A DNA stretch of 59,601 bases from Gammaproteobacteria bacterium. Lineage in GTDB: Bacteria > Pseudomonadota > Gammaproteobacteria > WOZS01. Within the stretch, counting starts at the first letter, position 1. Every line of letters starts with the position of its first letter. The DNA lies in assembly GCA_011620135.1 (NCBI GenBank), contig WOZS01000005.1:1-59601 (forward strand), in the 5' to 3' direction. The translations under genes and the position numbers were made by a program. Positions 48,184-59,443 of this stretch are shown here, piece by piece. Under the pieces are notes generated by a model, which was not told the DNA's origin, did no database searches, and saw only the letters and a list, made by a program, of their open reading frames with translations.

Positions 48184-48984
48184 ATGCAAACCTCTTGCCA
48201 GCTGCGCTGGATGACCTACAATGTCCGTCTGGATACGCCAGAAGATACACACGACCCCTGGACGCAGCGCCGGGACCGCATCGCCGCACTGCTGCGCTTT
48301 CATGAAGTGGATGTGGCGGGGCTGCAAGAGCCCCTGCGCCATCAGGTGGATGACCTCTGCGCCCGAATGCCTGGTTATGCCTGGGTGGGTGTGGGACGTG
48401 ACGACGGGGTCGATGGCGGCGAGTTCGCACCTGTGTTCTTTCGGCGTGAGGCGCTGGAGGTCATGTCCTGGCAAGTGGATTGGCTGGCGCCACAACCGGC
48501 GGCTCCGGGGCAGCAAGGTTGGGATGCAGGTGCTGTGCGCATTGCCACGTCAGTCCTGCTGTGTCATCGGCTGACGCGGCAGCGCATCCGTTATTACAAT
48601 ACCCACCTGGATCACCGTGATCCCCATTCGCGGCTGGAGGCCGCGCGCCTGCTCGCCTCGTGGGCCAGTTCCTGTGGGGAGCCTGTGGTGATGGGTGGGG
48701 ACTGGAACGACCTCATCGAGGCGCCTGGCCAGCAGTTCCTGGCTCAGCATCTCTATGATGCCCGCGCCATCAGCCTGATGCCTCCTTTCGGGCCGCAGGG
48801 CACCTTTCCCGGCTTTGCAGCAGGTGAAGAGGAAGGTCCGGCCATTGATCGGCTGTGGGTCTCCCCAGGGGTCATCGTGCAGCGCTTTGGCGTATTGAAT
48901 CAGCATGCCAGGGGCAGGCATTATGCCGATCACCTGCCGGTGATGGCGGATCTGGTTTTCAACAGGGGTGAGGAGGCCAACTGA
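48184..48984 (+). CDS. Endonuclease/exonuclease/phosphatase (EEP) family metallohydrolase
   Basis: MTYNVR, GLQE, GRDDG..GE, NTHLDH, GDWND, IDR, DHLPV. Confidence 0.88.
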   Translation: MQTSCQLRWMTYNVRLDTPEDTHDPWTQRRDRIAALLRFHEVDVAGLQEPLRHQVDDLCARMPGYAWVGVGRDDGVDGGEFAPVFFRREALEVMSWQVDWLAPQPAAPGQQGWDAGAVRIATSVLLCHRLTRQRIRYYNTHLDHRDPHSRLEAARLLASWASSCGEPVVMGGDWNDLIEAPGQQFLAQHLYDARAISLMPPFGPQGTFPGFAAGEEEGPAIDRLWVSPGVIVQRFGVLNQHARGRHYADHLPVMADLVFNRGEEAN

Positions 48985-49979
48985 TGGACAGGCGCGGCCT
49001 ATTGCAGGCATTGACGGGGTTTTCAGGGGTGGCGGCAACCTTCTCCTCGGTTCAGGCGGCCCAGTTACAGCCCGTGCCCCTGCCGCCAGCGCATAAGCCA
49101 AAACCCAGCTGGACGGCACGACTGCAGGAATTGACCAAGGCTCCTGGTTGGGAGGGCTATTTCACCGCCCAGCAGGTGCAACAGTTCACAACCGAAAACG
49201 GTTTGGAACCGGACGCGTTGCTCTTTGCGCTGTTGCCCGTGGCGTCTGACTATGCCGTGGCCCCCCTGTCGGGCTTTCGTGTGGGTGCCGTGGCACGGGG
49301 TGGTTCAGGTGGTCTGTATCTGGGGGCCAACATGGAGTTTGCGGGCCTGCCCCTGTCCATGACCATGCACGCCGAGCAGGCTGCCGTGGCCCATGCCTGG
49401 GGACATGGGGAAGAGGCGATCAGCCAGTTGGCTGTGACCGCGGCACCCTGCGGTTTCTGCCGCCAGTTCCTCTATGAGCTCGCCTCGGCAGAGAGCCTTC
49501 AGATCCGTCTGCCGGGACGTCCTGCCACCACATTGCGCCAGTTGCTGCCGGCGGCCTTCGGGCCGCGTGATCTGGGGGTGCAGGGCGCCTTGCTCACCAA
49601 CACCCTGCGCACCTTGCAATTGGAAGATGGCGCTGCAGGCGATGTGCTGGCGCAGACAGCCTTGGCCGAGGCCGCGCGCAGTTATGCCCCTTATACCGGC
49701 AATTACGCTGGCATAGCCCTGCAGTCCAGGTCTGGCCGGGTTTTTGCGGGTCGCGTGGCCGAGAATGCTGCCTACAATCCAGTCCTGTCTCCCCTGCACA
49801 TGGCCCTCTCGGCCATGCGCATGGCGCGCATTTCACCCCTGGAGACAGTTCGGGGGGTGCTGGTGGAGGCGCATCCACGCCCCGTGGGGCCAGCGCAGGA
49901 CACGGCTGCCAAGGTCATGATGGAACACCTGGGTGGCAGCGGGCGCTTGACGGTATTGCAGGCGCGGCTCGTAACCTGA
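48984..49979 (+). CDS. cdd: Cytidine deaminase (two-domain E. coli type) with putative Tat signal peptide
   Basis: ANMEF, HAE (H129/E131), PCGFC (C156/C159), second domain SYAPY...ENAAYNP. N-terminus MDRRGLL...VQA. Confidence 0.9.
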   Translation: MDRRGLLQALTGFSGVAATFSSVQAAQLQPVPLPPAHKPKPSWTARLQELTKAPGWEGYFTAQQVQQFTTENGLEPDALLFALLPVASDYAVAPLSGFRVGAVARGGSGGLYLGANMEFAGLPLSMTMHAEQAAVAHAWGHGEEAISQLAVTAAPCGFCRQFLYELASAESLQIRLPGRPATTLRQLLPAAFGPRDLGVQGALLTNTLRTLQLEDGAAGDVLAQTALAEAARSYAPYTGNYAGIALQSRSGRVFAGRVAENAAYNPVLSPLHMALSAMRMARISPLETVRGVLVEAHPRPVGPAQDTAAKVMMEHLGGSGRLTVLQARLVT

Positions 49980-50023: not shown

Positions 50024-50422
50024 ATGGAGCATTTTGATCTGGAAGGATGGATGTGGTCCGAGGCATGCACGATGCTGGATCGGGTCGAGCGGCTGCAGCG
50101 GCAGTTTTTTCAGCCGGCTGGATCCAGGGGGCTATGGCAACCACCTCTCGATGTGTTCGAGACCGAAAGCGCCATCTTTCTGGTCCTGGCTCTTCCTGGG
50201 GTCGAGGCTGATGCCATCGAGGTGCTTTATCATCAAGGAGGTGTGCTGGTCCGGGGGGAGCGCCGCCTGATCGCTGAACCCGATGCCGTGATTCACCGCC
50301 TGGAACTCCCCTATGGACATTTCGAGCGTCGCGTCGTGTTGCGACCCGGGCGCTTCGAGTTGCGCCTGCAGCAACTGCGCGATGGATGTCTCACCATTGT
50401 GCTGGAGAAGGTGGACCAATGA
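50024..50422 (+). CDS. Hsp20/alpha-crystallin small heat-shock protein
   Basis: WQPPLDVFET, LPGV, GER, ELPYG.FERR, DGCL.I.L.K. Confidence 0.88.
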   Translation: MEHFDLEGWMWSEACTMLDRVERLQRQFFQPAGSRGLWQPPLDVFETESAIFLVLALPGVEADAIEVLYHQGGVLVRGERRLIAEPDAVIHRLELPYGHFERRVVLRPGRFELRLQQLRDGCLTIVLEKVDQ

Positions 50423-52791
50423 CAGAGCAAGAACAAGGCATGACCACAGGGCAGGCCAAGCAGGAGAGCGTGGTTCCGGTGATACCGGTGCGCGGCATGG
50501 TGCTGTTTCCAGGGCTGGTGTTTCCCATTTCGGTGGGCCGGGAGCGTTCCGTGGCCGCTGCCCAGGATGCGGTACGCCGTGAGGCGAGCGTGCTGATTGT
50601 CCTGCAGCGCGATCCCCAGCTGGATGATCCAGTGGCGCTGGACGATCTCCATACCGTGGGGACCATGGCCACGGTGCTGCGCTATGTGACCGCGCCAGAT
50701 GGCTCCCATCACCTGGTGGTACGGGGCGAGCAGCGCTGCCGCCTCATGGCGATGCTTTCCAGTGAGCCTTTCTTGCAGGCCAGCGTCATGCCTCTGCCAG
50801 AGGAGGCTGGCGAGGGCAATGAGCTCGAGGCCAGCGCCTATTTTCTCAAGCAACAGGCCCTCGAGGCGCTGCGCCTGCTGCCCAATGTCCCAGAAGAGAT
50901 GAGCCGGGCCATCGAGGCGTTGGAGTCCCCAGGCTCCCTGGCGGACTTCATCGCCGCCTATATGGATCTCAAGCCGGAAGATAAACAGGCCATCCTGGAG
51001 GTGGTGAGCGTTCCCCAAAGGCTCGAGCGCGTCCAGGAGCTACTGGCTCATCGTTTGGAGGTGTTGCGACTCACCCAGCAGATCGGCCAGAAAACCAAGG
51101 AAAAGATGGAAGAGCGCCAGCGCGAGGTCCTGCTGCGCGAGCAGCTGCGTACCATCCAGAACGAGCTGGGCGGGGGCGAGGAGCGTGCCGCGGAGTTTGA
51201 GGTTCTGCAGACCTCTATCAAGGAAGCGCACATGCCTCCCGAGGTGGAAGAGCATGCCCTCAAGGAATTGCGGCGTCTTGAGCGCATGCCGGAGGGAGCC
51301 AGCGAATACACCATGGCGCGCACCTACCTGGACTGGCTTTTGGAGCTGCCCTGGTCGCGCTTCACCGAGGACACCCTGGACATCGCCCATGCCAGGACCA
51401 TACTGGACGAGGATCATTTCGACCTGGAAAAGGTCAAGCGACGCATCCTGGAACAGTTGGCTGTCCTGAAACTCAACCCCCAGGGCAAAGCACCCATCCT
51501 GTGTTTCGTGGGGCCGCCCGGGGTCGGCAAGACCTCGTTGGGGCAGAGCATCGCCCGGGCCACCGCTCGACAGTTCGTGCGGGTCAGTCTGGGCGGTGTC
51601 CATGACGAAGCGGAGATCCGCGGTCACCGGCGCACCTACGTGGGTGCCCTCCCCGGGAACATCATTCAGGCGCTGCGCAAGGCTGGCAGCGCCAATCCGG
51701 TCATGCTGCTGGACGAAGTGGACAAGCTGGGCCGCGGCATCCAGGGAGATCCCGCCGCCGCCCTCCTGGAAGTGCTCGACCCGGAACAGAATGCCACCTT
51801 CCGGGATAATTACCTGGGCGTGCCCTGCGATCTGAGTCACGTGCTTTTCATCGCCACGGCCAATGTGCTGGACGATATCCCCTGGGCACTGCGTGATCGC
51901 ATGGAACTGATCGAGCTCCCCGGGTATACCGAGGAGGATAAGCTGGAGATCGCCAGGCGCTATCTCATCAAGCGCCAGCAGACGGCTTGCGGTCTGGCCG
52001 ACTTCGACTGCCAGGTGACCGAGCAAGGTTTGCGCACGATCATCCGGGAATACACCCGGGAGGCGGGCTGCCGCATGCTGGAGCAGCGCATCGGGGCTGT
52101 GTTCCGTCACGTGGCTTTGCAGGTGACCGAGGGAGGCGAGGCGCTCCATGTGATCGACACCCAGCAGGTGCAGGCCATTCTCGGGCCCAGGCGGTTTGAA
52201 AATGAGCTTGCCATGCGCACCAGTGTGCCCGGTGTGGCGACCGGGCTGGCCTGGACACCTGTTGGTGGCGATATCCTGTTCATCGAGGCAAGCCTCACCC
52301 CCGGCCATGGCAAGCTGATCCTGACCGGCCAGCTGGGTGATGTAATGAAGGAATCGGCCCAGGCGGCGTTGAGTCTGCTCAAGGCGCGCAGCGGCCAGCT
52401 GGATCTCGCCCCTGAGCTCTTCGATCAGAACGACATCCATATCCATATTCCCTCGGGGGCCATCCCCAAGGATGGTCCCAGCGCCGGTGTCGCCTTGTTC
52501 ATGGCGCTGGTGTCGCTGGTCACAGGGCGCAAGGTACGCTCCGATACCGCCATGACCGGCGAGATCACGCTGCGTGGCTTGGTCCTGCCGGTGGGGGGCA
52601 TCAAGGAGAAACTTCTGGCCGCCCATCGGGCCGGAATCACCCGGGTGATGTTGCCAGAACGCAACCACAAGGATTATGAGGAGATTCCCCAGGGGGCCCG
52701 GGAAGCGCTTGAACTGATATGGATCGGCAATGTGGACGAGGCCCTGGAAGCCGCCCTGGGTCCCCCAGATCCGCGGCATGGCCCTGCATGA
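50419..52791 (+). CDS. lon: ATP-dependent Lon protease (LonA)
   Basis: LON N-domain, GPPGVGKTS, LLDEVDK, PKDGPSAG catalytic Ser, GGIKEK. ATGA overlap with hsp20. Confidence 0.97.
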   Translation: MTEQEQGMTTGQAKQESVVPVIPVRGMVLFPGLVFPISVGRERSVAAAQDAVRREASVLIVLQRDPQLDDPVALDDLHTVGTMATVLRYVTAPDGSHHLVVRGEQRCRLMAMLSSEPFLQASVMPLPEEAGEGNELEASAYFLKQQALEALRLLPNVPEEMSRAIEALESPGSLADFIAAYMDLKPEDKQAILEVVSVPQRLERVQELLAHRLEVLRLTQQIGQKTKEKMEERQREVLLREQLRTIQNELGGGEERAAEFEVLQTSIKEAHMPPEVEEHALKELRRLERMPEGASEYTMARTYLDWLLELPWSRFTEDTLDIAHARTILDEDHFDLEKVKRRILEQLAVLKLNPQGKAPILCFVGPPGVGKTSLGQSIARATARQFVRVSLGGVHDEAEIRGHRRTYVGALPGNIIQALRKAGSANPVMLLDEVDKLGRGIQGDPAAALLEVLDPEQNATFRDNYLGVPCDLSHVLFIATANVLDDIPWALRDRMELIELPGYTEEDKLEIARRYLIKRQQTACGLADFDCQVTEQGLRTIIREYTREAGCRMLEQRIGAVFRHVALQVTEGGEALHVIDTQQVQAILGPRRFENELAMRTSVPGVATGLAWTPVGGDILFIEASLTPGHGKLILTGQLGDVMKESAQAALSLLKARSGQLDLAPELFDQNDIHIHIPSGAIPKDGPSAGVALFMALVSLVTGRKVRSDTAMTGEITLRGLVLPVGGIKEKLLAAHRAGITRVMLPERNHKDYEEIPQGAREALELIWIGNVDEALEAALGPPDPRHGPA

Positions 52792-58335: not shown

Positions 58336-59154
58336 TCATGGCGCAGCCCATCTCTCCATGGCGCGGCGCTCGTCGATGAGGCGGCGCACATAGGCCGAGG
58401 CATGGTGGGCAGGGATGCTCGGGCATGTTTCGAGGCGCCATTCAGCGGGATCATAGCCGAAACGGCGCATGGTTCTGCCAAGCATGGGTTGCAGGATGGC
58501 CACATCGCTGGTCGTGCACCAGCTACGCCAGGAGGCGCTGCCGCCGGTGCGGGCTACCCGCCCGAGATCATCCCCCAGGAGCACCTGGGGAGCCAACGCA
58601 AACCCCAGGGCCTGCTCGAGTTCCGGTACGCCTCCGGCAAGAAGGTCCTCGTAGCGAACAATTGCAAAAGGGTATCGTGCGTCCTGGCCTGCCAGGAAAT
58701 CATCGATGAGCCTCAGGCTTGCTTCAATGTGGTCCAGGGAGAAATCTTCCCGCAGTGCCGCAAACAGCTCCAGCAGGCCAACAGCGGCGGGACACTCTTC
58801 CTTGCGCCGGAGAAGATCCAGCGCCTTGGCGACGCGCGTTTCTTCCCAACGCCACATGACCTCGAAGCCACCGACATACAACAAGGCGCTCACCAGCACG
58901 TCTCGCGGGTCGCGAACCAGAAAAAGCCGTTTCGAGAAGACAGCCCCCAGTCTCGATGCGATGCCAGGCGCCACGGGCAGCAGCAACTTGGCCACCACAT
59001 GGCCTGGTGCTTCCTGGGCCTGCTGCAGGAAAGCGGGATTGGATGGTTCGAAAAAGCAGCAGGCATCCGGCAGCGAGGCACGCAGGCGTCCATAGAGCAG
59101 GCTGGTGCCGGAACGGGCATGACCCACGATGACCACCTTGTGTGTTGTATCCAT
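58336..59154 (-). CDS. PAPS-dependent sulfotransferase family protein
   Basis: 5'-PSB loop GHARSGTS, 3'-PB motif VRDPRDVLVS, VRYEDL. Confidence 0.8.
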   Translation of the reverse strand: MDTTHKVVIVGHARSGTSLLYGRLRASLPDACCFFEPSNPAFLQQAQEAPGHVVAKLLLPVAPGIASRLGAVFSKRLFLVRDPRDVLVSALLYVGGFEVMWRWEETRVAKALDLLRRKEECPAAVGLLELFAALREDFSLDHIEASLRLIDDFLAGQDARYPFAIVRYEDLLAGGVPELEQALGFALAPQVLLGDDLGRVARTGGSASWRSWCTTSDVAILQPMLGRTMRRFGYDPAEWRLETCPSIPAHHASAYVRRLIDERRAMERWAAP

Positions 59155-59264
59155 GAACCGCTCCATCACAGAAGACCCGCCTGTACACGCCAGGATGCAC
59201 CAATGGCGATGCAGCCTGCCAGTGGTTCTGGATGCCTGCTCCTGTCAGCGCCGCATGTGTTGGT

Positions 59265-59443
59265 TTATGGGTTCTTCCCGCCCGGGGTGATCATCACCCA
59301 GATCAGCAGCCCGACCGGCAGGTTCACCTGTGCCACCTCGAGGCCGGCGATGGCCCCAAAGAGCCCCGCTGCCATCAGGCCGGCCAGGATGCCGGCCCCG
59401 ATGCAAAGACTCACATGCTGACGAAGCGCTCCAACACGCTCAT
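59265..59443 (-). pseudogene. acr3: ACR3 arsenite efflux transporter, frameshifted 5' remnant
   Basis: MSVLERFVSM then stop at 59411-59413; another frame continues SLCIGAGILAG...LEVAQVNLPVGLLIWVMITP, the ACR3 N-terminal signature, and then ends. Confidence 0.75.

What the first reader, a model, noticed from the sequence alone, without database searches (positions are those of the whole stretch)
48984..49979. Cytidine deaminase with an apparent twin-arginine export signal
Seen: MDRRGLLQALTGFSGVAATFSSVQA|AQ (48984-49058) has an RR motif, a weakly hydrophobic core and a V-x-A site, followed by a Pro-rich linker. By-eye alignment to E. coli Cdd as I recall it leaves an N-terminal extension about the length of this peptide. 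The zinc ligands, catalytic Glu and NMEF ribose-binding motif are intact. Established: Cdd is normally cytoplasmic, and Tat exports folded, cofactor-loaded oligomers. Inference: a periplasmic nucleoside deaminase for nitrogen scavenging, detoxifying cytidine analogues, or local ammonia release for acid buffering. I know of no described system like this.
Basis: partly seen in the sequence, partly recalled or inferred. Interest (0 to 1): 0.7.

Follow-up and report, generated by a model that had tools for sequence, protein, structure and literature searches.

The report
Cytidine deaminase carrying an export signal
This gene encodes an ordinary, catalytically intact cytidine deaminase that carries a conserved twin-arginine export signal, so an enzyme known only from the cytoplasm is probably sent to the periplasm here; similar signals occur in about one in ten branches of the enzyme family, and I found no paper describing this.

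Summary
ORF 48984-49979 (+) is a 331-aa two-domain, E. coli-type cytidine deaminase. It scores 311 bits on NF006537. The AlphaFold model matches V. cholerae and E. coli Cdd with TM 0.89-0.92. All zinc, catalytic and ribose-binding residues are present.

Its first 25 residues (MDRRGLLQALTGFSGVAATFSSVQA|AQ) lie outside the fold. They are exactly the 27-residue excess over canonical Cdd.

- **Start codon:** it is real. No earlier start is possible, a GAGGAGG Shine-Dalgarno lies 7 nt upstream, and ATG/GTG is kept in four orthologous loci.
- **Conservation among five orthologues:** M-D-R-R is invariant, the hydrophobic region is only 39% identical, and the mature enzyme is 81% identical.
- **Other exported Cdds:** an Acidobacteriaceae clade has an invariant RR signal. 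About 10% of diverse Cdd clusters carry RR-type or Sec/lipoprotein-type signals.
- **Tat versus Sec:** RR-type signals are uniformly less hydrophobic than the RR-less ones.
- **Genome context:** tatABC is present, this is the only cdd, and no Udk, NupC or nucleoside hydrolase was found.

Export is not proven. No signal predictor was available and TIGR01409 does not match. I found no literature on an exported bacterial Cdd. Verdict: a new variant of a known enzyme, of moderate interest.

The parts
48184..48984 (+). Upstream gene of the endonuclease/exonuclease/phosphatase (EEP) family, without a signal peptide. Its TGA stop overlaps the cdd ATG (TGATG). The EEP-cdd pairing is conserved in all orthologous loci.
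   Evidence: PF03372, 50.6 bits. Nearest solved structures are 3g6s (E 2.5e-43) and the mannosyl-6-phosphatase 4c1r (E 3.6e-31). Synteny in L006, L008 and L009. No terminator-like site between the two genes.
48970..48976 (+). Shine-Dalgarno sequence GAGGAGG, 7 nt before the ATG.
   Evidence: Read directly from the sequence. A purine-rich equivalent is kept in L006, L008 and L009.
48984..49058 (+). Predicted cleavable signal peptide, residues 1-25: n-region MDRR, weakly hydrophobic h-region GLLQALTGFSGVAATFSS, c-region V-Q-A followed by the cleavage site before AQ.
   Evidence: Among five orthologues MDRR is 100% conserved and residues 5-25 are 39% identical (2 of 22 columns invariant), against 81% for the mature part. 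A small residue at -1 and a small or aliphatic residue at -3 is kept in all five. pLDDT is about 50-60. Maximum 10-residue Kyte-Doolittle hydrophobicity is 1.39, within the RR class.
48990..48995 (+). Twin-arginine codons AGG CGC (R3 R4).
   Evidence: The second Arg codon is CGC/CGA/CGT/CGA in the four loci. This is synonymous change with Arg retained.
49059..49109 (+). Proline-rich linker at the N-terminus of the mature protein, residues 26-42 (AQLQPVPLPPAHKPKPS). It stands in place of the first ~15 residues of canonical Cdd.
   Evidence: 71% mean identity among orthologues. Codon-position differences of 25/7/51 show purifying selection on the protein. Low pLDDT.
49110..49976 (+). Mature two-domain cytidine deaminase, residues 43-331.
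   Evidence: NF006537 311 bits. phmmer against PDB: 4eg2 E 7e-67 and 1af2 E 3e-63. Foldseek target-normalised TM 0.89-0.92 to 4eg2, 1ctt and 6k63.
49239..49484 (+). Catalytic N-terminal CDA-fold domain. It holds NMEF (49329-49340), H129-A-E131 (49368-49376) and C156-G-F-C159 (49449-49460).
   Evidence: PF00383. These residues sit in invariant columns of the 52-sequence alignment.
49533..49886 (+). C-terminal CDA-like domain that lacks zinc ligands and carries the conserved AENAAYNP segment.
   Evidence: PF08211, 112 bits. E260, A262, A263, N265 and P266 are invariant.

Best explanation
The gene encodes an active homodimeric-type cytidine/deoxycytidine deaminase. It is made with a cleavable N-terminal twin-arginine signal peptide, most likely exported by the TatABC system of this uncultured gammaproteobacterium, and released into the periplasm after cleavage behind V-Q-A.

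**Shown:**
- the enzyme family and intact active site;
- the correct start codon;
- a signal-peptide pattern of conservation (invariant M-D-R-R, a fast-evolving uncharged h-region, a retained small-x-small site);
- recurrence of export signals in other Cdd clades;
- presence of tatABC;
- absence of any other cdd.

**Inferred:**
- actual export and the Tat route;
- the role.

The role I think most likely is extracytoplasmic pyrimidine-nucleoside salvage. Cytidine released from extracellular nucleic acids would be deaminated to uridine outside the cytoplasm, with ammonia as by-product. The pyrimidine would then enter metabolism as uracil through Upp. Upp is the only pyrimidine salvage enzyme found among those sought for the cytoplasm.
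For: **Enzyme identity:**

**Start codon:** the frame opens 4 codons upstream. The SD and the ATG/GTG start are conserved in 4 loci, and the only indel in the leader is 3 nt long.

**Signal-like conservation:**
- residues 1-4 are 100% identical, 5-25 are 39%, 26-42 are 71% and 43-331 are 81%;
- the R4 codon varies synonymously;
- codon-position differences are 56/40/64 in the h-region against 286/188/690 in the mature part.

**Recurrence:** an Acidobacteriaceae/Terriglobales clade has an invariant (N/D)RRxxLAxLG(S/T)AGLG leader in 8 proteins and 7 genome loci. Among 149 representatives at 50% identity, 4 carry RR-type and 11 carry Sec- or lipoprotein-type leaders.

**Tat-like character:**
- It matches RR.[FGAVML][LITMVF] followed by 33 uncharged residues.
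- The 17 RR-bearing Cdd leaders have maximum 10-residue hydrophobicity 1.19-1.94. The 13 RR-less ones have 2.18-3.65. There is no overlap: Mann-Whitney p = 4e-6, or 7e-4 with clades collapsed.
- The leader resembles the genome's own candidate Tat substrates, namely PhoD-like, PLC-like and CopA-like proteins.

**Machinery:** a tatA-tatB-tatC operon lies on contig C14.

**Context for the role:**
- This is the sole cdd; the other PF00383 hit is RibD.
- Upp is present.
- None of the following was found: Udk/PRK, NupC, nucleoside hydrolase, UraA-type permease.
- The only PNP_UDP_1-superfamily protein carries a Sec signal.
- The 5'-nucleotidase has an N-terminal signal or anchor.
- An NCS1 nucleobase permease and a Bmp-type ABC transporter are present.
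Against: - No dedicated predictor (SignalP, TatP, PRED-TAT) could be run.
- The Tat-signal profiles TIGR01409 and Pfam TAT_signal do not match the leader. However, TIGR01409 reached its cut-off on only 1 of 5 plausible Tat substrates of this genome, scored a second just below it, and missed the acidobacterial RR leaders too, so this is a weak negative.
- The motif D-R-R-G-L-L-Q departs from S/T-R-R-x-F-L-K. It lacks the Phe and the Lys, and at 25 residues the leader is short for a Tat signal.
- Other Cdd homologues carry Sec or lipoprotein leaders. Cdd can therefore evidently be exported unfolded, and Tat is not required by the enzyme.
- The salvage model has gaps. The exported PNP_UDP_1-like protein is far below every nucleosidase cut-off, and some relatives are fused to unrelated domains, so its substrate is unknown.
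- The NCS1 gene is split over two frames.
- Exported Cdd genes in other lineages sit in no nucleoside operon.
Confidence: 0.65

Rival explanations
1. The leader is a genuine cleavable signal but is used by the Sec pathway. The twin arginines are just the positively charged n-region. The enzyme would fold and acquire zinc in the periplasm.
For: Cdd homologues with clear Sec-type or lipobox leaders exist (P0086, P0116, P0126, P0132, P0165 and others), so Sec export of this fold is feasible. TIGR01409 and Pfam TAT_signal do not match. The leader is short (25 aa) and lacks the F-L-K part of the consensus.
Against: Both arginines are invariant in all five orthologues, while every other leader position except two varies. 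RR is also invariant in the independent acidobacterial clade. The h-region hydrophobicity (1.39) falls in the RR class and below every RR-less Cdd leader (minimum 2.18).
Confidence: 0.17
2. The protein stays in the cytoplasm. The N-terminal 25-42 residues are a lineage-specific extension with some other role, or a decaying signal, and this is simply the cell's housekeeping Cdd.
For: It is the only cdd in the genome, and a cytoplasmic Cdd is the rule for the family. Profile models for Tat signals do not match. One acidobacterial copy (L011) has an in-frame stop inside its leader, with an ATG just after it. This suggests a leaderless form can be tolerated.
Against: The conservation pattern is that of a signal peptide, not of a folded or interacting extension: an invariant charged n-region, a compositionally constrained but sequence-variable uncharged stretch, and a retained small-x-small site. 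The model gives it no structure or contact with the fold. Leaders of three different kinds (RR, Sec, lipobox) have been fixed in different Cdd clades. That is hard to explain without export.
Confidence: 0.1
3. The leader is not cleaved and acts as an N-terminal signal anchor. The enzyme would be held on the periplasmic face of the inner membrane by the Pro-rich linker.
For: The conserved Pro-rich segment (71% identity) looks like a spacer or tether. The h-region plus following uncharged stretch is 33 residues long.
Against: The h-region is too weakly hydrophobic (1.39) for a stable transmembrane helix. A V-Q-A / A-x-A-type site is conserved in all five orthologues.
Confidence: 0.05
4. The start is mis-assigned. 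Translation begins downstream of RR and the leader is untranslated.
For: In-frame TTG and GTG codons exist at residues 7, 10, 16 and 31 in the window.
Against: Where I looked at those positions (codons 7, 10 and 12) the candidate start codons are not conserved in the orthologues. A strong SD precedes only the first ATG. The leader keeps its reading frame (one 3-nt indel). The linker shows a clear third-position bias, 25/7/51.
Confidence: 0.03

Closest known systems
Homodimeric (long-form) cytidine deaminase Cdd of E. coli, V. cholerae and K. pneumoniae (PDB 1CTT/1AF2, 4EG2, 6K63; EC 3.5.4.5)
   Same: Same two-domain architecture, fold (TM 0.89-0.92) and zinc ligands, catalytic Glu and ribose-binding N-x-E. 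Identity is 38-41% in the fold-search structural alignments.
   Different: Those enzymes start directly with the N-terminal helical segment and are cytoplasmic. This one has 27 extra residues forming an RR signal peptide, and a Pro-rich linker replaces the first ~15 residues. It reaches NF006537 but falls below the TIGR01355 cut-off, 224.6 against 275.
Tat-exported nutrient-scavenging hydrolases such as PhoD alkaline phosphatase/phosphodiesterase and phospholipase C-type phosphoesterases
   Same: An RR leader with a weakly hydrophobic, Gly/Ala/Ser-rich h-region sits on a metal-dependent hydrolase. This genome has its own PhoD-like (MTRRTLLGQAGLIAASLGLS) and PLC-like (WTRRTFLQGAAALGLSG) examples.
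   Different: The catalytic domains are unrelated. Those leaders match or nearly match TIGR01409 (18.1 and 15.9 bits), whereas the Cdd leader does not.
Periplasmic nucleotide-degrading enzymes of Gram-negative bacteria (UshA 5'-nucleotidase, CpdB), from my own knowledge
   Same: They process nucleic-acid breakdown products outside the cytoplasm before uptake. A homologous 5'-nucleotidase with an N-terminal signal or anchor is present in this genome.
   Different: They remove phosphate and stop at the nucleoside. I found no described periplasmic enzyme that alters the base.
Secreted eukaryotic nucleoside and nucleic-acid deaminases: ADGF/ADA2 (CECR1) adenosine deaminases and fish SNAD1 (PMC11004436; bioRxiv 10.1101/2023.05.16.541053)
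   Same: A deaminase that is normally intracellular, given a signal peptide and acting outside the cell.
   Different: They are eukaryotic. ADGF has a TIM-barrel fold and acts on adenosine. SNAD1 is an AID/APOBEC-type enzyme. Neither is a Cdd orthologue.
Blasticidin-S deaminase (a CDD/CDA-derived clade, Iyer et al. 2011, PMC3239186)
   Same: A Cdd-family enzyme whose role is to inactivate a cytosine-nucleoside antibiotic. It is the precedent for the 'detoxify cytidine analogues' reading.
   Different: It is the short tetrameric form, cytoplasmic and without a signal peptide. No evidence here links the window's enzyme to any antibiotic.

Membership tests
Homodimeric two-domain cytidine deaminase (NF006537 / TIGR01355, EC 3.5.4.5) | N-terminal catalytic CDA domain followed by a C-terminal zinc-less CDA-like domain | tested here: met
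   PF00383 at residues 86-167 and PF08211 at residues 184-301. Foldseek TM 0.89-0.92 to 4eg2, 1ctt and 6k63.
Homodimeric two-domain cytidine deaminase (NF006537 / TIGR01355, EC 3.5.4.5) | Score above the curated equivalog cut-off | tested here: met
   NF006537 scores 311.1 bits against a cut-off of 153. The older TIGR01355 model scores 224.6, below its cut-off of 275.
Homodimeric two-domain cytidine deaminase (NF006537 / TIGR01355, EC 3.5.4.5) | Zinc ligands H-x-E ... P-C-x-x-C with the catalytic Glu, and the ribose-binding N-x-E | tested here: met
   H129, E131, C156, C159, N116 and E118 are invariant in the 52-sequence alignment and aligned to 4eg2.
Homodimeric two-domain cytidine deaminase (NF006537 / TIGR01355, EC 3.5.4.5) | Cytidine/deoxycytidine deaminase activity | not testable with these tools
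   Needs an enzyme assay.
Twin-arginine (Tat) substrates | RR motif close to S/T-R-R-x-F-L-K at the n/h boundary | tested here: inconclusive
   D-R-R-G-L-L-Q matches the TatP-style pattern RR.[FGAVML][LITMVF]. It gives no hit to TIGR01409 or Pfam TAT_signal. On 5 plausible Tat substrates of this genome, TIGR01409 exceeded its 16.7-bit cut-off once (18.1), scored one just below it (15.9) and missed the other three.
Twin-arginine (Tat) substrates | Both arginines conserved in orthologues | tested here: met
   RR is invariant in 5 of 5 orthologues, with synonymous codon change, while 20 of 22 h/c-region columns vary. It is also invariant in the acidobacterial clade.
Twin-arginine (Tat) substrates | h-region less hydrophobic than Sec leaders, followed by a small-x-small cleavage site | tested here: met
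   1.39, against 2.18-3.65 for RR-less Cdd leaders and 2.0-3.9 for the Sec leaders of the exported PNP-like family. V-Q-A, with equivalents in all orthologues.
Twin-arginine (Tat) substrates | Tat translocase encoded in the genome | tested here: met
   TatC at 214 bits. tatA and tatB lie immediately upstream, at C14 ~58620-59409.
Twin-arginine (Tat) substrates | Export dependent on TatC and on the RR pair | not testable with these tools
   Needs genetics and fractionation.

The most novel reading that the evidence does not exclude
In this lineage, and perhaps in Acidobacteriaceae and other soil bacteria, pyrimidine nucleoside salvage has been moved outside the cytoplasm. An exported Cdd would work with an exported 5'-nucleotidase and an exported, uncharacterised PNP_UDP_1-like nucleosidase. 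Together they would convert nucleic-acid-derived cytidine to uracil in the periplasm. Uracil plus Upp would then be the only entry into pyrimidine nucleotides, since the genome lacks Udk, NupC and nucleoside hydrolase. Exported Cdd would then be a widespread, unrecognised class of periplasmic base-modifying enzymes. It could also inactivate cytidine-analogue antibiotics or drugs before they enter the cell.
Probability: 0.3. Interest if true: 0.7.

Novelty: new variant of a known kind. Interest (0 to 1): 0.55.

Why it matters
Cdd is a textbook cytoplasmic salvage enzyme. A periplasmic form would mean that some bacteria edit the base of a nucleoside before uptake. That changes how nucleoside transport specificity, nitrogen release from extracellular nucleic acids and pyrimidine salvage are modelled in genome-scale reconstructions.

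The signal is not a one-off. It is fixed in this lineage and in Acidobacteriaceae, an abundant soil group. Some kind of leader is present on about 10% of diverse long-form Cdd clusters.

The long-form Cdd of Gammaproteobacteria is the enzyme reported to inactivate gemcitabine (my own knowledge: Geller et al. 2017). An exported version could act on cytidine-analogue drugs or natural nucleoside antibiotics without uptake.

The claim is cheaply testable with a leader-reporter fusion in E. coli.

Tried and rejected
- **Tat-signal profile models.** TIGR01409 and Pfam TAT_signal gave no hit on the full protein or on 42-residue N-termini of this Cdd and of two acidobacterial RR-Cdds. Calibration on this genome's own Tat candidates showed low sensitivity. 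I treat the result as a weak negative.
- **Sequencing runs.** I therefore have no expression data and no sample-type information.
- **Neighbourhoods of exported Cdds in other lineages.** Acidobacterial L011/L014, P0116, P0086 and P0124 have no nucleoside, transport or nuclease genes nearby. The neighbours are Ddl, arginase, an aminoacyl-tRNA synthetase, trehalose synthesis genes and peptidases.
- **Fusion proteins.** Long Cdd fusions (P0121, P0128, P0207, P0246 and others) have no informative partner domains.
- **Number of origins of the leader.**
  - The quick tree separates the window clade from the acidobacterial/Sec clade.
  - The AU test does not reject one exported clade: p = 0.85, with the constrained tree 25 lnL units better.
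  - A 134-row FastTree needs 11 changes but has weak support.
  - The question stays unresolved.
- **Recent horizontal transfer.** Rejected as unsupported. GC is 64.7% against 61.9% for the genome, GC3 is normal, and synteny is conserved. However, none of 40 class-level relatives has a long-form Cdd, so the gene is patchy in the class.
- **Mis-assigned start.** Rejected.
- **Literature.** Six searches found no exported bacterial Cdd.
Full report
**What is there.** It is a long-form, two-domain cytidine deaminase.
- PF00383 covers residues 86-167 and PF08211 covers 184-301.
- NF006537 scores 311 bits against a cut-off of 153, aligned over residues 43-309 to profile positions 16-279.
- The older TIGR01355 model scores 224.6, below its cut-off of 275.
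- phmmer against the PDB gives V. cholerae Cdd 4eg2 (E 7e-67, query 41-310 to chain 17-283) and E. coli Cdd 1af2 (E 3e-63).
- An AlphaFold2 model from a 52-sequence alignment has mean pLDDT 89.2 and pTM 0.85. It superposes on 4eg2, 1ctt and 6k63 with target-normalised TM 0.89-0.92.
- H129, E131, C156, C159, N116 and E118, and the C-terminal AENAAYNP segment, all fall in invariant alignment columns.

The enzyme part is therefore ordinary and looks active.

**The N-terminal extension.** The distance from residue 1 to the conserved S-x-F-x-VGA motif is 68 in the many canonical enterobacterial Cdds and 95 here. That is an excess of 27 residues. It agrees with the offset of the catalytic residues from the E. 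coli numbering, which I take from my own knowledge of 1CTT. In the model, residues 1-40 have pLDDT 48-61, and the confident fold begins at about residue 43. The extension consists of:
- a 25-residue signal-like peptide, MDRRGLLQALTGFSGVAATFSSVQA;
- a proline-rich stretch, AQLQPVPLPPAHKPKPS.

**Is the start codon right?**
- The reading frame opens only four codons before the ATG (open frame 335 aa), so no earlier start exists.
- GAGGAGG lies at 48970-48976, seven bases before the ATG. The ATG overlaps the stop of the upstream gene (TGATG).
- In three orthologous metagenomic loci (L006, L008, L009; proteins 77-88% identical, same synteny) the start is ATG, GTG and ATG. It is preceded by a purine-rich SD and followed by GAC AGG CGN.
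- The internal TTG/GTG codons of the window are not conserved at the positions I compared (codons 7, 10 and 12).
- The only indel in the leader is 3 nt.
- Codon-position differences show coding constraint:

| Region (residues) | Differences at codon positions 1/2/3 |
|---|---|
| Linker (26-42) | 25/7/51 |
| Mature part (43-331) | 286/188/690 |
| h-region (5-25) | 56/40/64 (relaxed but in frame) |

**Does it behave like a signal peptide?** Among the five orthologues, conservation is as follows:

| Region (residues) | Mean pairwise identity |
|---|---|
| 1-4 (M-D-R-R) | 100% |
| 5-25 | 39% (2 of 22 columns invariant, but always uncharged and mildly hydrophobic) |
| 26-42 (linker) | 71% |
| 43-331 (mature enzyme) | 81% |

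- The second Arg codon is CGC, CGA, CGT, CGA. This is synonymous change with Arg kept.
- All five keep a small residue at -1 and a small or aliphatic one at -3: VQA, VQA, VQG, TQA, AEA.

This is the classic signature of a cleavable signal peptide. It is not what a folded or interacting extension would show.

**Is it Tat-type?** No signal predictor was available.

Evidence for:
- The leader matches the TatP-style pattern RR.[FGAVML][LITMVF], followed by 33 uncharged residues.
- The arginine pair is invariant here and in a second clade (below).
- I pooled all leader-bearing Cdds I found. The 17 with RR have maximum 10-residue Kyte-Doolittle hydrophobicity 1.19-1.94 (window 1.39). The 13 without RR have 2.18-3.65. 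There is no overlap: Mann-Whitney p = 4e-6, or 7e-4 after collapsing the two large clades.
- The genome has a tatA-tatB-tatC operon. It also has other RR-leader proteins of families that are known Tat substrates: PhoD-like, phospholipase-C-like and CopA-like.

Evidence against:
- TIGR01409 and Pfam TAT_signal do not match.
- The leader is short and lacks the F-L-K of the consensus.

Calibration weakens the negative. Of five plausible Tat leaders of this genome, TIGR01409 scored one above its 16.7-bit cut-off (18.1), scored one just below it (15.9) and missed the other three. It also missed the very Tat-like acidobacterial Cdd leaders.

My estimates are about 0.85 for export by some route and about 0.65 for Tat specifically.

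**Survey of homologues.**
- Among the 120 best clusters at 90% identity, the window clade (5 proteins) carries RR leaders.
- A second clade of 8 full-length proteins plus one truncated also carries them. This clade maps to Acidobacteriaceae/Terriglobales genomes. Its leader, (N/D)RRxxLAxLG(S/T)AGLG, is present in all seven loci examined.
- P0116 has a lipobox leader and P0086 a Sec-type one.
- Among 149 representatives at 50% identity, I counted 4 RR-type and 11 Sec- or lipoprotein-type leaders, about 10%.
- Whether these share one origin is unresolved.
- None of 40 class-level relatives of the window's genome has a long-form Cdd. The gene is therefore patchy, but its GC and GC3 are unremarkable.

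**Genome context and likely role.** The genome is 2.1 Mb in 76 contigs and is scored 100% complete.
- *Only one cdd:* the other PF00383 hit is RibD. A zinc-motif regex finds only one other match, in a 62-aa six-frame ORF that is not a deaminase.
- *Present:* Upp.
- *Not found:* Udk/PRK, NupC, nucleoside hydrolase and UraA-type permease.
- *Exported PNP-like protein:* the only PNP_UDP_1-superfamily protein (C30:25374-26390) has a Sec-type leader. It belongs to a rare family of 11 clusters whose members examined all have leaders.
- *5'-nucleotidase:* it has an N-terminal signal or anchor.
- *Transporters:* there is an NCS1 nucleobase permease, split over two frames. There is also a Bmp-type ABC transporter operon led by a leaderless adenosine deaminase, NF006850 at 505 bits.

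This fits a model in which pyrimidine nucleosides are processed to uracil outside the cytoplasm and salvaged by Upp, while purine nucleosides are imported and deaminated inside. The model is inference. The substrate of the PNP-like protein is unknown. It scores far below every nucleosidase cut-off, and some relatives are fused to unrelated domains. Ammonia release for nitrogen supply and inactivation of cytidine-analogue antibiotics remain possible. Nothing here bears on acid buffering.

**Local operon.** The upstream EEP-family gene (48184-48984) has no signal peptide. It resembles Bacteroides EEP proteins, including a mannosyl-6-phosphatase. It is paired with cdd in all four loci. No terminator-like site separates cdd from it, or from the downstream hsp20-lon pair. 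I see no functional link between the partners.

**Comparison with what is known.** Six literature searches, and a reading of the deaminase-fold survey by Iyer et al. 2011, found no exported, periplasmic or Tat-dependent bacterial Cdd. The nearest analogues are listed here.
- Eukaryotic secreted deaminases: ADGF/ADA2 and fish SNAD1.
- Periplasmic nucleotide phosphatases, which stop at the nucleoside.

Earlier unchecked notes of this scan record similar sightings in other genomes. That agrees with the survey here but is not independent proof.

**Verdict.** The reading 'Cdd with a twin-arginine export signal' is supported as far as sequence analysis can go. It is a new variant (an exported form) of a well-known enzyme. 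It is recurrent in environmental bacteria and apparently undescribed. Export, route and role still need a bench test.

Noticed in passing
own genome, contig C30:25374-26390 (+) (not in the window): A 338-aa divergent PNP_UDP_1-superfamily protein with a Sec-type leader (MKRQRPFLWLILVFFSMPAALA|GRY). It is the only PF01048 hit in the genome. It belongs to a rare family of 11 clusters in 5.8 billion proteins, and every member examined has a leader. Two relatives are fused, one to PF01427 (VanX-type dipeptidase) and one to PF03306 (acetolactate decarboxylase). Its function is unknown; it is a candidate periplasmic nucleosidase.
   Followed up: partly
own genome, contig C30:1860-3354 (-): An NCS1 nucleobase:cation symporter gene is split over two overlapping reading frames (152-aa N-terminal piece and 377-aa C-terminal piece). 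This is either a frameshift pseudogene or an assembly error.
   Followed up: partly
own genome, contig C71:6434-12055 (+): A leaderless adenosine deaminase (NF006850, 505 bits) heads a Bmp-type ABC transporter operon with an ATPase, two permeases and a binding protein that has a signal peptide. Purine nucleosides thus seem to be imported and deaminated inside, in contrast to the exported Cdd.
   Followed up: partly
window 48184-48984 (+): The EEP-family gene translationally coupled to cdd resembles Bacteroides EEP proteins, including the mannosyl-6-phosphatase BT3783 (4c1r), rather than nucleases. The EEP-cdd pairing is conserved in all four loci of the clade, but its logic is unclear.
   Followed up: partly
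window 50024-52791 (+): An hsp20-lon pair whose reading frames overlap in the window and in two of three orthologous loci follows cdd after about 45 nt with no terminator-like site. The same order (EEP, cdd, hsp20, lon, then a NUDIX gene and isocitrate/isopropylmalate dehydrogenase) is kept in the orthologous loci.
   Followed up: no
L011:6001-6984 (uncultured Acidobacteriaceae MAG, CAVXBB010000015.1): This copy of the RR-leader Cdd has an in-frame stop inside the leader (…GSAALGL*AIRLPAM…), followed by an ATG that would give a leaderless 303-aa Cdd. It is either a sequencing error or a natural loss of the export signal.
   Followed up: no
own genome, whole: No TadA-like HAE…PCxxC deaminase was found, either by PF00383 search or by regex, although tRNA adenosine deaminase is normally essential. 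It may be divergent, or it may lie in an assembly gap or a withheld stretch.
   Followed up: no
P0121 (993 aa), P0128, P0207, P0246, P0208 (metagenomic proteins): Long proteins carry a full long-form Cdd unit (two in P0121) joined to 250-450 residues with no Pfam match. P0207 and P0246 also have N-terminal leaders.
   Followed up: partly
own genome, contigs C42 (-) ~21335, C1 (+) ~74890, C7 (-) 7327, C27 (+) 61828, C38 (-) ~14770: A small set of other RR-leader proteins (PhoD-like, phospholipase-C-like, CopA-like multicopper oxidase and two unknowns) makes up the probable Tat substrate set of this 2.1-Mb genome.
   Followed up: partly
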